A stretch of DNA of 64,000 nucleotides from Escherichia coli. Its GTDB lineage: Bacteria > Pseudomonadota > Gammaproteobacteria > Enterobacterales > Enterobacteriaceae. The stretch lies in NCBI RefSeq assembly GCF_044324875.1, contig NZ_CP172185.1; one strand, given 5' to 3'. Shown here piece after piece: positions 54,001 through 57,000 of this stretch. Each line of letters opens with the position of its first letter. The first letter of the stretch is position 1. A program made the position numbers.

Positions 54001-57000
54001 CAATCATTTACTATTGCACTGTTAATTGGTGCGAGGTTGTGATGAAAGACGTTGTGATTGTCGGGGCGTTACGGACACCTATCGGCTGCTTTCGTGGTGC
54101 GTTAGCGGGTCATTCCGCTGTGGAACTTGGCAGCCTGGTCGTGAAAGCGTTAATAGAACGTACCGGTGTTTCTGCATATGCGGTGGATGAAGTGATTCTT
54201 GGTCAGGTGTTGACTGCAGGGGCAGGGCAGAATCCGGCAAGGCAATCGGCTATTAAAGGTGGTCTTCCTAATAGCGTTTCTGCAATCACGATTAATGACG
54301 TTTGCGGTTCCGGGCTTAAAGCACTGCATCTGGCTACTCAGGCGATACAGTGTGGCGAGGCTGATATTGTCATCGCCGGTGGTCAGGAAAACATGAGTCG
54401 CGCACCACATGTTCTGACTGATAGCCGCACCGGTGCACAGCTTGGTAATAGCCAGTTGGTTGATAGTCTTGTGCACGATGGGTTGTGGGATGCCTTCAAT
54501 GATTATCATATTGGTGTCACCGCCGAAAATCTGGCTCGCGAATATGGCATCAGCCGTCAGTTGCAGGATGCTTACGCACTTAGCTCGCAACAAAAAGCGC
54601 GAGCGGCGATTGACGCCGGACGATTTAAAGATGAGATCGTCCCGGTAATGACCCAAAGTAACGGTCAGACGTTGGTTGTAGATACCGATGAACAGCCACG
54701 CACTGACGCCAGTGCAGAAGGCTTAGCCCGTTTAAATCCTTCATTTGATAGTCTCGGTTCTGTGACAGCGGGTAATGCATCATCCATAAACGATGGCGCA
54801 GCTGCGGTAATGATGATGAGCGAAGCCAAAGCACGAGCGTTGAATTTACCCGTGCTGGCCCGCATTCGCGCATTTGCCAGCGTTGGTGTAGATCCGGCAT
54901 TGATGGGAATTGCGCCGGTGTATGCGACCCGCCGTTGCCTGGAGCGTGTTGGCTGGCAGTTGGCTGATGTCGATCTTATCGAGGCTAATGAAGCGTTTGC
55001 TGCACAGGCGCTTTCGGTTGGCAAGATGCTTGAATGGGATGAGCGTCGGGTCAATGTCAATGGTGGCGCGATCGCACTCGGTCACCCAATAGGCGCTTCC
55101 GGTTGCCGAATCCTCGTTTCTCTGGTTCATGAAATGGTGAAACGTAATGCCCGCAAAGGACTGGCTACGCTTTGTATCGGCGGGGGCCAGGGCGTGGCAT
55201 TGACCATTGAACGTGACGAATAGCTCTGCATTTCCTCCTTACCGATAAATATCAGCCGTCATTAATCTGTTGAATAATGGTGGCTGGCGAGTCGACATAC
55301 ATTTTCAGGGCTCCCTGATTTTTCCATTCTCATGACATATTCGTGATCGACACTGCACTTTTTTCAGTCCTTAACTTAAAAATGAAACATTGTTTTATTT
55401 TTAATTGAAAACCCTATCCCGTGGGCATATCATCCCCTTATAGAGAAAACGAAACAGCGTTTCACTATCGTTTTCTATTTTCACGCTTCACTGATTATCG
55501 GAGGTTGATGTGGACGTAAGACAGAGCATCCACAGTGCGCATGCAAAAACGCTGGATACCCAGGGGCTGCGCAATGAATTTTTGGTTGAAAAGGTATTTG
55601 TCGCTGATGAGTACACCATGGTTTACAGCCACATTGACCGTATTATTGTTGGCGGCATTATGCCGGTAACTAAAACGGTTTCCGTTGGCGGGGAAGTTGG
55701 TAAACAACTCGGGGTAAGCTATTTCCTGGAACGTCGCGAGTTAGGTGTTATCAATATTGGCGGTGCCGGTACGATTACCGTCGATGGTCAATGCTATGAA
55801 ATCGGTCACCGCGAAGCCCTGTATGTTGGTAAAGGCGCAAAAGAAGTTGTCTTTGCCAGTATTGATACCGCTACTCCGGCGAAGTTTTATTACAATTGCG
55901 CACCTGCGCATACGACGTATCCCACCAAAAAAGTCACACCGGACGAAGTATCTCCAGTCACGTTAGGCGATAACCTCACCAGTAACCGTCGCACGATTAA
56001 CAAATATTTTGTCCCGGATGTACTGGAAACCTGCCAATTGAGTATGGGGCTGACGGAGCTGGCTCCGGGTAACTTGTGGAACACCATGCCGTGTCACACC
56101 CACGAGCGCCGGATGGAAGTTTATTTCTATTTCAATATGGATGATGACGCCTGCGTTTTCCACATGATGGGGCAGCCGCAAGAAACGCGTCATATTGTGA
56201 TGCATAACGAGCAGGCGGTGATCTCCCCGAGCTGGTCGATCCATTCCGGCGTCGGAACCAAAGCTTATACCTTTATCTGGGGCATGGTCGGTGAAAACCA
56301 GGTTTTTGATGATATGGACCATGTGGCCGTTAAAGATTTGCGCTAGTTGTGGGCATAAACGAATAAGGTATTGTTATGATTTTAAGTGCATTTTCTCTCG
56401 AAGGTAAAGTTGCGGTCGTCACTGGTTGTGATACTGGGCTGGGTCAGGGGATGGCGTTGGGGCTGGCGCAAGCGGGCTGTGACATTGTGGGCATTAACAT
56501 CGTCGAACCGACTGAAACCATCAAGCAGGTCACGGCGCTGGGGCGTCGTTTTTTAAGCCTGACCGCCGATCTGCGAAAGATTGATGGCATTCCTGGACTG
56601 CTGGATCGCGCGGTAGCGGAGTTTGGTCATATTGATATCCTGGTGAATAACGCCGGATTGATTCGCCGCGAAGATGCTCTCGAGTTCAGCGAAAAAGACT
56701 GGGACGATGTCATGAACCTGAATATCAAGAGCGTATTCTTCATGTCTCAGGCTGCGGCGAAACACTTTATCGCGCAAGGCAATGGCGGCAAGATTATCAA
56801 TATCGCGTCAATGCTCTCCTTCCAGGGCGGGATCCGTGTGCCTTCTTATACCGCATCAAAAAGCGGCGTGATGGGCGTGACGCGATTGATGGCGAATGAA
56901 TGGGCTAAACACAACATTAATGTTAATGCGATAGCTCCGGGTTACATGGCGACCAACAATACTCAACAACTGCGGGCAGATGAACAACGTAGCGCGGAAA

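What the first reader, a model, noticed from the sequence alone, without database searches (positions are those of the whole stretch)
55378..55400. KdgR-type operator upstream of kduI
AAATGAAACA-TTG-TTTTATTT is an imperfect inverted repeat of the kind bound by the pectin/hexuronate repressor KdgR, placed upstream of kduI-kduD as expected.
Basis: partly seen in the sequence, partly recalled or inferred. Interest (0 to 1): 0.2.

Follow-up and report, generated by a model that had tools for sequence, protein, structure and literature searches.

The report
KdgR repressor operator at kduI promoter
The flagged 21-bp palindrome is a genuine, deeply conserved binding site of the type used by the sugar-acid repressor KdgR, placed just upstream of the E. 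coli kduI-kduD promoter; it is real but already known, and is one of two such sites flanking that promoter.

Summary
A matrix built de novo from the E. coli kdgK, kdgT and eda promoters, without kduI or a seed, ranks this box first (19.2 bits) and a second, unflagged box at 55447-55467 second (18.8 bits); both exceed the best of 30 shuffles (17.3). Both boxes are conserved in position and core sequence in 78 of 80 kduI loci from about 25 Enterobacteriaceae genera, 67-68 bp apart, flanking a conserved sigma-70 promoter (TTGAAA-17-TATCAT) that has also been published. A conserved CRP-like block lies upstream. Published work shows kduID is derepressed in kdgR mutants, and also in mutants of the paralogue plaR, and is induced by hexuronates. 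The most likely mechanism is that KdgR occupies O1 (about -50) and O2 (about +18) and is released by KDG. The site is ordinary and already known. The only mildly open points are the conserved sequence difference between O1 and O2 and the role of PlaR.

The parts
55380..55400 (.). Operator O1: KdgR-type 21-bp palindrome AAATGAAACATTGTTTTATTT, centre 55390 (about -50 from the inferred transcription start)
   Evidence: 1 mismatch to consensus, unique in the window; 19.2 bits, rank 1 of 64 kb on the independent matrix; core invariant in 79/79 sequences; core hexamers unchanged in E. coli; variants only at 55382 and 55378
55447..55467 (.).
   Evidence: 4 mismatches to consensus; 18.8 bits, rank 2 of 64 kb; conserved in most genera as AAACGGAACnnnGTTTCGTTA, 67-68 bp from O1 in 70 of 73 loci; K-12 has T at 55458, giving 3 mismatches
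55405..55410 (+). -35 hexamer TTGAAA of the kduI promoter
   Evidence: TTGAAA-17-TATCAT, 10 of 12; AATTGAAAAC 100% conserved; the same promoter is listed in PMC3946193
55428..55433 (+). -10 hexamer TATCAT; transcription start inferred near 55440
   Evidence: (TA..AT positions conserved); PMC3946193. The start site itself is inferred, not measured.
55342..55357 (.). Candidate CRP site CGTGATCGACACTGCA, centre 55349.5 (about -90.5)
55501..55505 (+). Shine-Dalgarno GGAGG of kduI
   Evidence: conserved
55510..56346 (+). kduI (5-dehydro-4-deoxy-D-glucuronate isomerase), GTG start
   Evidence: PF04962; K-12 annotation
56376..57137 (+). [quoted passage not shown]
   Evidence: no matrix hit between 55500 and 56400 among the top hits

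Best explanation
The box is operator O1 of the kduI-kduD promoter, a binding site for the IclR-family repressor KdgR. The control region reads, 5' to 3': a CRP-like site (about -90.5), O1 (-60 to -40, abutting the -35), the sigma-70 promoter TTGAAA-17-TATCAT, O2 (+8 to +28), a 5' UTR, the SD sequence and the GTG start. Without inducer, KdgR dimers occupy O1 and O2. O1 sits where the RNA polymerase alpha C-terminal domains and an upstream activator must act, and O2 sits on the initially transcribed region, so together they block polymerase recruitment or activation and promoter escape. When hexuronates or oligogalacturonides are catabolised, 2-keto-3-deoxygluconate (KDG) accumulates and binds KdgR, the repressor leaves, and CRP-assisted transcription of kduID proceeds. 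Shown here: the sequence match, the independent matrix score, conservation of both boxes and the promoter, and their fixed spacing. Taken from the literature: derepression in kdgR mutants, hexuronate induction, CRP binding and the promoter hexamers. Inferred: the transcription start, occupancy of each individual box by KdgR, and the steric mechanism.
For: One mismatch to the published KdgR consensus AAATGAAACAnTGTTTCATTT (consensus quoted in PMC5559549). Unseeded search of the kdgK, kdgT and eda promoters recovers the same TGRAMC-N3-GTTTYA palindrome. The matrix from those three sites ranks O1 and O2 first and second in 64 kb, at 19.2 and 18.8 bits against a shuffle maximum of 17.3. Both top hits falling in one 286-bp spacer by chance has probability about (286/64000)^2, or 2e-5. 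The phylogenetic footprint over 79 sequences shows discrete conserved blocks exactly at O1, -35, -10, O2 and SD. O1-O2 spacing is 67 bp in 51 loci and 68 bp in 19. None of 11 differences between this strain and K-12 falls in O1, -35 or -10. The same box type precedes ogl (PF14583) and lies near kdgM (PF06178) in other genera. Literature: kduD mRNA rises in a kdgR deletion (PMC6958661); kduI and kduD are overexpressed when kdgR is deleted (PMC6892915); kduI promoter activity is induced 7- to 54-fold by galacturonate or glucuronate (PMC3578941); promoter TTGAAA-17-TATCAT (PMC3946193); CRP EMSA (PMC8085971).
Against: No direct footprint or ChIP of E. coli KdgR on this promoter was found in the held literature, so which protein occupies which box is inferred. 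PlaR (YiaJ), a paralogue, also binds the kduI region in gSELEX and EMSA, and its deletion also raises kduD mRNA (PMC6958661). O2 deviates systematically from the KdgR-only sites at positions 4 and 18 (C and G instead of T and A). The transcription start was not measured. The training matrix rests on only three sites.
Confidence: 0.88

Rival explanations
1. The box or boxes are primarily operators for the paralogous IclR repressor PlaR (YiaJ), or are shared: for example O1 serves KdgR (sensing KDG) and O2 serves PlaR (sensing galacturonate or ascorbate), so the promoter integrates two signals.
For: A PlaR gSELEX peak and gel shift at kduI, a marked increase of kduD mRNA in a plaR deletion, and a PlaR-box consensus nearly identical to the KdgR box (PMC6958661). 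O2 differs from O1 and from the kdgK/kdgT/eda sites at positions 4 and 18 in a way conserved across genera. The right half of the yiaK operator (GTTTCG) resembles the O2 right half.
Against: The one bona fide PlaR operator available (plaR-yiaK spacer, ATTTGAAATCAAGTTTCGCAT) scores only 2.1 bits on the matrix that gives O1 and O2 19 bits, so both boxes resemble KdgR-only targets far more. PlaR shifts were obtained at 1-5 uM protein. kdgR and plaR cross-regulate each other, so the plaR effect on kduD could be indirect. GGAAC half-sites like that of O2 also occur in the kdgK site. E. coli variants of O2 drift towards O1-like GTTTTATTA.
Confidence: 0.2
2. The palindrome is a chance A/T-rich feature of the promoter-upstream region (an UP-element-like tract or H-NS-bound DNA) with no specific repressor.
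For: The spacer is A/T-rich, and H-NS is listed at the kduI-yqeF spacer in PMC3946193. The outer arms of the 19-nt inverted repeat are just A/T runs.
Against: 0.02 matches are expected by chance. The conserved columns are the G/C-containing cores TGAAAC and GTTTT, not the A/T flanks. It scores above all shuffles on an independent matrix. The same word recurs before ogl and other pectin genes.
Confidence: 0.02
3. The downstream element (O2, within the inverted repeat 55444-55476) acts as an RNA hairpin in the 5' UTR (attenuator or stability element) rather than as a DNA operator.
For: A perfect 9-bp inverted repeat, 55444-55452 / 55468-55476, forms the predicted MFE stem.
Against: The fold energy is not better than shuffles (z = -0.97; 33 of 200 shuffles fold as well). 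There is no Rfam match. The right arm of the stem is poorly conserved across genera, while the GAAAC...GTTTC palindrome, centred 3 bp away, is conserved.
Confidence: 0.03

Closest known systems
KdgR operators of the kdg/pectin regulon in Enterobacterales (E. coli kdgK, kdgT, eda; Dickeya ogl, kduI, pel genes; consensus AAATGAAACAnTGTTTCATTT, Rodionov et al. 2000/2004 as quoted in PMC5559549)
   Same: The same 21-bp palindrome with TGAAAC-N3-GTTTYA core, the same kind of target (KDG-pathway gene), a position at the promoter, and conservation across genera. O1 uses the GTTTTA right half, as do the E. coli kdgK and kdgT sites.
   Different: Nothing essential. This promoter carries two boxes 67-68 bp apart flanking the core promoter, whereas one high-scoring box was seen in the kdgK and eda regions. 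O2 has C/G instead of T/A at positions 4 and 18.
PlaR (YiaJ) box, ATnTGAAACnnnGTTCAnTT (PMC6958661)
   Same: A near-identical published consensus, and kduI is among the gSELEX and EMSA targets of PlaR.
   Different: The strongest PlaR site (the yiaK promoter) has TGAAAT/GTTTCG halves and scores 2.1 bits on the KdgR matrix. O1 and O2 cluster with KdgR-only targets.
Other A/T-rich palindromic IclR-family operators (IclR TGGAAATNATTTCCA, AllR; PMC8222616)
   Same: Palindromic, A/T-rich, bound by dimers or tetramers of an IclR-type HTH protein, and often two sites per promoter.
   Different: A different half-site word. The typical tandem spacing of 18-22 bp reported for the family is not what is seen here (67-68 bp), although about 20 non-Escherichia loci have a weak third box 23 bp from O1.

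Membership tests
KdgR operator (KdgR box) | 21-bp palindrome matching AAATGAAACAnTGTTTCATTT | tested here: met
   1 mismatch of 20 specified positions; unique in the window, 0.02 expected; consensus as quoted in PMC5559549
KdgR operator (KdgR box) | High score on a matrix built from other KdgR-controlled promoters | tested here: met
   Matrix from the unseeded kdgK/kdgT/eda motif: O1 19.2 bits (rank 1), O2 18.8 bits (rank 2) of 64 kb; shuffle maximum 17.3
KdgR operator (KdgR box) | Located in the promoter region of a KDG / pectin-catabolism gene | tested here: met
   110-130 bp upstream of kduI (PF04962), abutting the -35 of TTGAAA-17-TATCAT
KdgR operator (KdgR box) | Conserved in orthologous promoters | tested here: met
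   78 of 80 loci; core columns 100% conserved; the two exceptions are explained
KdgR operator (KdgR box) | Target derepressed when kdgR is inactivated and induced by KDG-generating substrates | not testable with these tools
   Literature only: Northern blot in a kdgR deletion (PMC6958661), kdgR-deletion iModulon (PMC6892915), hexuronate induction of the kduI promoter (PMC3578941)
KdgR operator (KdgR box) | Direct, KDG-sensitive binding of KdgR protein to this DNA | not testable with these tools
   No footprint, EMSA or ChIP of E. coli KdgR on kduI was found in the held library
PlaR (YiaJ) operator | Resembles the validated high-affinity PlaR site at yiaK | tested here: inconclusive
   The yiaK site scores 2.1 bits on the matrix that gives O1 19.2 bits, so the two are distinguishable; but only one reference site was available, and PlaR binding to the kduI probe is published (PMC6958661)
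CRP site (class I activator site) at 55342-55357 | Match to TGTGA-N6-TCACA at a helical-phase-compatible distance upstream of the promoter | tested here: inconclusive
Sigma-70 promoter | -35 and -10 hexamers with 16-18 bp spacing, conserved | tested here: met
   TTGAAA-17-TATCAT, 10 of 12; conserved; published. The start site was not measured.

The most novel reading that the evidence does not exclude
The kduI promoter is bracketed by two non-equivalent IclR-type operators whose sequence difference (O1 T4/A18 in about 79/79 sequences; O2 C4 in 75/79 and G18 in 52/79) and 67-68 bp spacing have been held across Enterobacteriaceae genera. This could mean either that each box is tuned to a different paralogue (KdgR at O1, PlaR at O2), giving two-signal control, or that a KdgR tetramer bridges both boxes and loops out the core promoter. 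The spacing of about 6.4 helical turns would place the dimers on nearly opposite faces.
Probability: 0.18. Interest if true: 0.35.

Novelty: already known. Interest (0 to 1): 0.12.

Why it matters
It matters little as a discovery. The KdgR box at E. coli kduI was predicted by comparative genomics two decades ago, and kduID is an accepted KdgR target. The modest residual value is that the promoter has two conserved but systematically different boxes and is reported to respond to two paralogous repressors (KdgR and PlaR), which makes it a compact test case for how paralogous IclR regulators share or partition operators.

Tried and rejected
- **RNA reading of the downstream inverted repeat (55444-55476):** the fold z-score is -0.97 and there is no Rfam hit, so it was rejected.
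- **Third-best matrix hit (18490-18510, 16.2 bits):** it lies inside the coding sequence of a sigma-54-type regulator (ygeV-like) and is below the shuffle maximum, so it was treated as chance.
- **L001 and L079 as possible counter-examples to conservation:** L001 is a chimeric MAG contig, and L079 has kduI directly behind kdgT (PF03812), so neither is informative.
- **CRP site by consensus alone:** not significant in this strain, so it is kept only as a candidate supported by conservation and published EMSA.
- **Papers and data not held:** Rodionov 2004, Murray & Conway 2005 on eda, and the CRP site list of PMC8085971. The comparison with footprinted Dickeya kduI operators could therefore not be made. 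The genome-contig scan returned only loci with KduI at least 91% identical, so Dickeya, Pectobacterium and Yersinia promoters were not sampled.
- **yqeF terminator-like hairpin (55305-55318):** weak, and the K-12 differences break pairs without compensation, so it was not pursued.

Full report
**Context.** The window is an E. coli chromosome segment. The yqeF-kduI spacer is 100% identical to strain N3 and 96.2% identical to K-12. It carries yqeF (54039-55223), kduI (55510-56346, GTG start), kduD (56376-57137) and araE, all on the + strand. Pfam confirms KduI (PF04962) and an SDR for KduD. The finding lies in the 286-bp yqeF-kduI spacer.

**Observation.**
- It is a 10-1-10 palindrome with one non-complementary position (G55384 opposite T55396).
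- The repeat finder extends it to 19-nt arms at 84% complementarity, but the extension is A/T-rich.
- Searching the window for AAATGAAACANTGTTTCATTT with up to 3 mismatches returns only this site (1 mismatch), against 0.02 expected from shuffles.
- That pattern is the published KdgR consensus of Rodionov et al., as quoted in PMC5559549.

**Independent matrix test.** To avoid circularity I took the three classical kdg-regulon promoters from K-12 (kdgK, kdgT, eda). I searched for the best shared 21-mer with no seed and without kduI.
- The top solution was TAATGGAACACTGTTTTAATA (kdgK), AATTGAAACGCTGTTTTATTT (kdgT) and TATTGGACCGGTGTTTCAAAA (eda), which is the same TGRAMC-N3-GTTTYA palindrome.
- A symmetrised log-odds matrix from these three sites was scanned over all 63,980 positions of the window. 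It ranks the flagged box first (19.2 bits) and a second box, AAACGAAACAGCGTTTCACTA at 55447-55467, second (18.8 bits).
- The highest score in 30 shuffled windows was 17.3 bits.
- The next hit (16.2 bits, 18490-18510) is inside a coding sequence.
- The matrix rests on only three sites, which is a limitation, but the result is unambiguous.

**Conservation test.** A genome-contig scan with KduI returned 80 loci from Escherichia, Citrobacter, Kluyvera, Enterobacter, Kosakonia, Lelliottia, Trabulsiella, Siccibacter, Phytobacter, Pseudocitrobacter and other genera.
- In 78 of them a box with 1-5 mismatches sits 113-137 bp upstream of the start codon. In most, a second box sits about 67 bp further downstream.
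- The alignment of 79 distinct upstream regions shows a textbook footprint. Flanks are about 30-60% conserved, while discrete blocks reach 90-100%.
- The conserved blocks are TCGTGATCG..CA (55341-55357), AAA.TGAAAC...GTTTTA (O1), AATTGAAAAC (-35), TA..AT (-10), GAAAACGGAAC..CGTTTC (O2) and GGAGG.
- O1-O2 centre-to-centre spacing is 67 bp in 51 loci and 68 bp in 19.
- The two loci without boxes are not counter-examples. L001 is a chimeric MAG contig. In L079, kduI directly follows a kdgT gene (PF03812).

**Variation within E. coli.**
- None of the 11 differences between this strain and K-12 falls in O1, the -35, the -10 or the CRP-like block. One (55458) falls at position 12 of O2, where K-12 has the consensus T.
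- The O1 30-mer is exact in 4,144 of 5,426 complete genomes. About 1,275 have one change.
- In the three genomes sampled, that change was at flank position 55382 (A to G, the form common in other genera) or at 55378, outside the box. The core hexamers were unchanged.

**Regulon-level support.** In most non-Escherichia loci kduI is divergent from ogl (oligogalacturonate lyase, PF14583), with a kdgM porin gene (PF06178) beyond it.
- A further box, TATCAAAACnnnGTTTCAwtr (13-20 bits), sits about 50 bp upstream of ogl.
- More boxes lie near other flanking genes.
- Escherichia has yqeF in place of ogl-kdgM and retains only the two kduI boxes.

**Promoter anatomy.** The consensus scan finds TTGAAA (55405-55410), 17 bp, TATCAT (55428-55433).
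- Both hexamers are conserved.
- The same promoter is listed for kduI in the RpoD holoenzyme SELEX study, which also lists H-NS at this spacer (PMC3946193).
- Taking the start as about 55440 (inferred), O1 spans -60 to -40 and abuts the -35, and O2 spans +8 to +28.
- The conserved GTGA..CA block is centred at about -90.5. As a CRP site it has 4 mismatches here, which is not significant alone, and 2-3 in other genera. Its left half and its distance from O1 are conserved.
- CRP activation and EMSA binding at kduI are published (PMC8085971). I could not obtain that paper's site sequence, so this remains a candidate.

**Mechanism.** The best-supported reading has three parts.
- KdgR dimers bind O1 and O2 in the absence of KDG. 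O1 blocks the space between the CRP-like site and the -35. O2 blocks the initially transcribed region.
- KDG, produced from hexuronates, releases the repressor.
- This fits the published 7- to 54-fold induction of the kduI promoter by galacturonate or glucuronate (PMC3578941), increased kduD mRNA in a kdgR deletion (PMC6958661), and overexpression of kduI and kduD in a strain that lost kdgR (PMC6892915).
- Occupancy of each box by KdgR, and the steric details, are inferences. No direct KdgR footprint on E. coli kduI was found in the held literature.

**Rivals.**
- **PlaR.** The paralogue PlaR (YiaJ) binds the kduI region in gSELEX and in gel shifts at 1-5 uM, and its deletion also raises kduD mRNA. 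However, kdgR and plaR cross-regulate each other (PMC6958661). The validated PlaR operator at yiaK scores only 2.1 bits on the KdgR matrix, so O1 and O2 look like KdgR-type rather than yiaK-type sites. Co-occupancy is possible; exclusive PlaR control is unlikely.
- **RNA hairpin.** An RNA-hairpin reading of the O2 region is not supported (z = -0.97; no Rfam match; right arm not conserved).
- **Chance.** Chance is excluded.

**Residual point of interest.** O1 and O2 differ systematically. Position 4 is T in 79/79 O1 sequences but C in 75/79 O2 sequences. Position 18 is A in 78/79 O1 sequences but G in 52/79 O2 sequences. All six half-sites of kdgK, kdgT and eda are of the O1 type. Whether this marks a deliberately weaker KdgR site or a paralogue-specific site cannot be decided here.

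**Verdict.** The element is an already known, ordinary KdgR operator. The added value is the second operator, the promoter and CRP-like context, and the PlaR caveat.

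Noticed in passing
window 55447-55467: A second KdgR-type box (AAACGAAACAGCGTTTCACTA, 18.8 bits, rank 2 in the window) lies downstream of the promoter.
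   Followed up: yes
window 55342-55357: A conserved CGTGATCG....CA block about 40 bp upstream of the O1 centre is a candidate CRP site. It is weak here (4 mismatches) and better in Citrobacter (2 mismatches).
   Followed up: partly
O1 and O2 across L002-L080: There is a systematic difference between the two boxes: position 4 is T (79/79) in O1 versus C (75/79) in O2, and position 18 is A (78/79) versus G (52/79). The cause is unknown; it may be a weaker site or paralogue (PlaR) specificity.
   Followed up: partly
L013, L005, L018, L038 and others, about 23 bp downstream of the O1 centre (over the -35): About 20 non-Escherichia loci have a weak third box, AATTGAAAACCCATTTCATCA (8-14 bits, TGAAA-N5-TTTCA), overlapping the -35. 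In E. coli the right half is lost (55403-55423).
   Followed up: partly
L066 1712-4000 (Enterobacter cloacae) and most non-Escherichia loci: kduI is divergent from ogl (PF14583), with kdgM (PF06178) beyond, and an extra box TATCAAAACnnnGTTTCA sits about 50 bp upstream of ogl. Escherichia has yqeF there instead, so its kduI promoter looks like the remnant of a larger pectin-cluster control region.
   Followed up: partly
L001 (JACZXR010000090.1, labelled as a Deltaproteobacteria MAG): This contig carries a kduI 99% identical to E. coli. The first ~17 residues of kduD are fused to an unrelated SDR, and a methyltransferase-like ORF abuts kduI. It is probably a chimeric assembly or contamination.
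   Followed up: partly
L061 (CACSKA010000005.1, labelled Chryseobacterium sp. 18061): This record carries an Enterobacteriaceae kduI locus whose promoter boxes are identical to those of L041 (Citrobacter sp. 18056). The record is probably mislabelled or contaminated.
   Followed up: no
L079 1-1272 (Klebsiella MAG): kduI directly follows a kdgT permease gene (PF03812) with a 58-bp gap, and no good KdgR box is found in the 215 bp available upstream. This is a different operon arrangement, possibly a second kduI copy.
   Followed up: partly
window 55305-55318: A weak terminator-like hairpin follows yqeF (5-bp stem plus T-run). The K-12 differences at 55307 and 55317 break two pairs without compensation, so read-through from yqeF into kduI cannot be excluded.
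   Followed up: partly
window 55444-55476: A perfect 9-bp inverted repeat (AGAAAACGA / TCGTTTTCT) encloses O2 but is centred 3 bp away from it. The RNA fold is not significant (z = -0.97) and the right arm is not conserved, so it is probably incidental.
   Followed up: yes
window 18490-18510: The third-best KdgR-matrix hit (TATTGAACTACTGGTGCATTA, 16.2 bits) lies inside the coding sequence of a sigma-54-dependent regulator (ygeV-like) and is most likely chance.
   Followed up: partly
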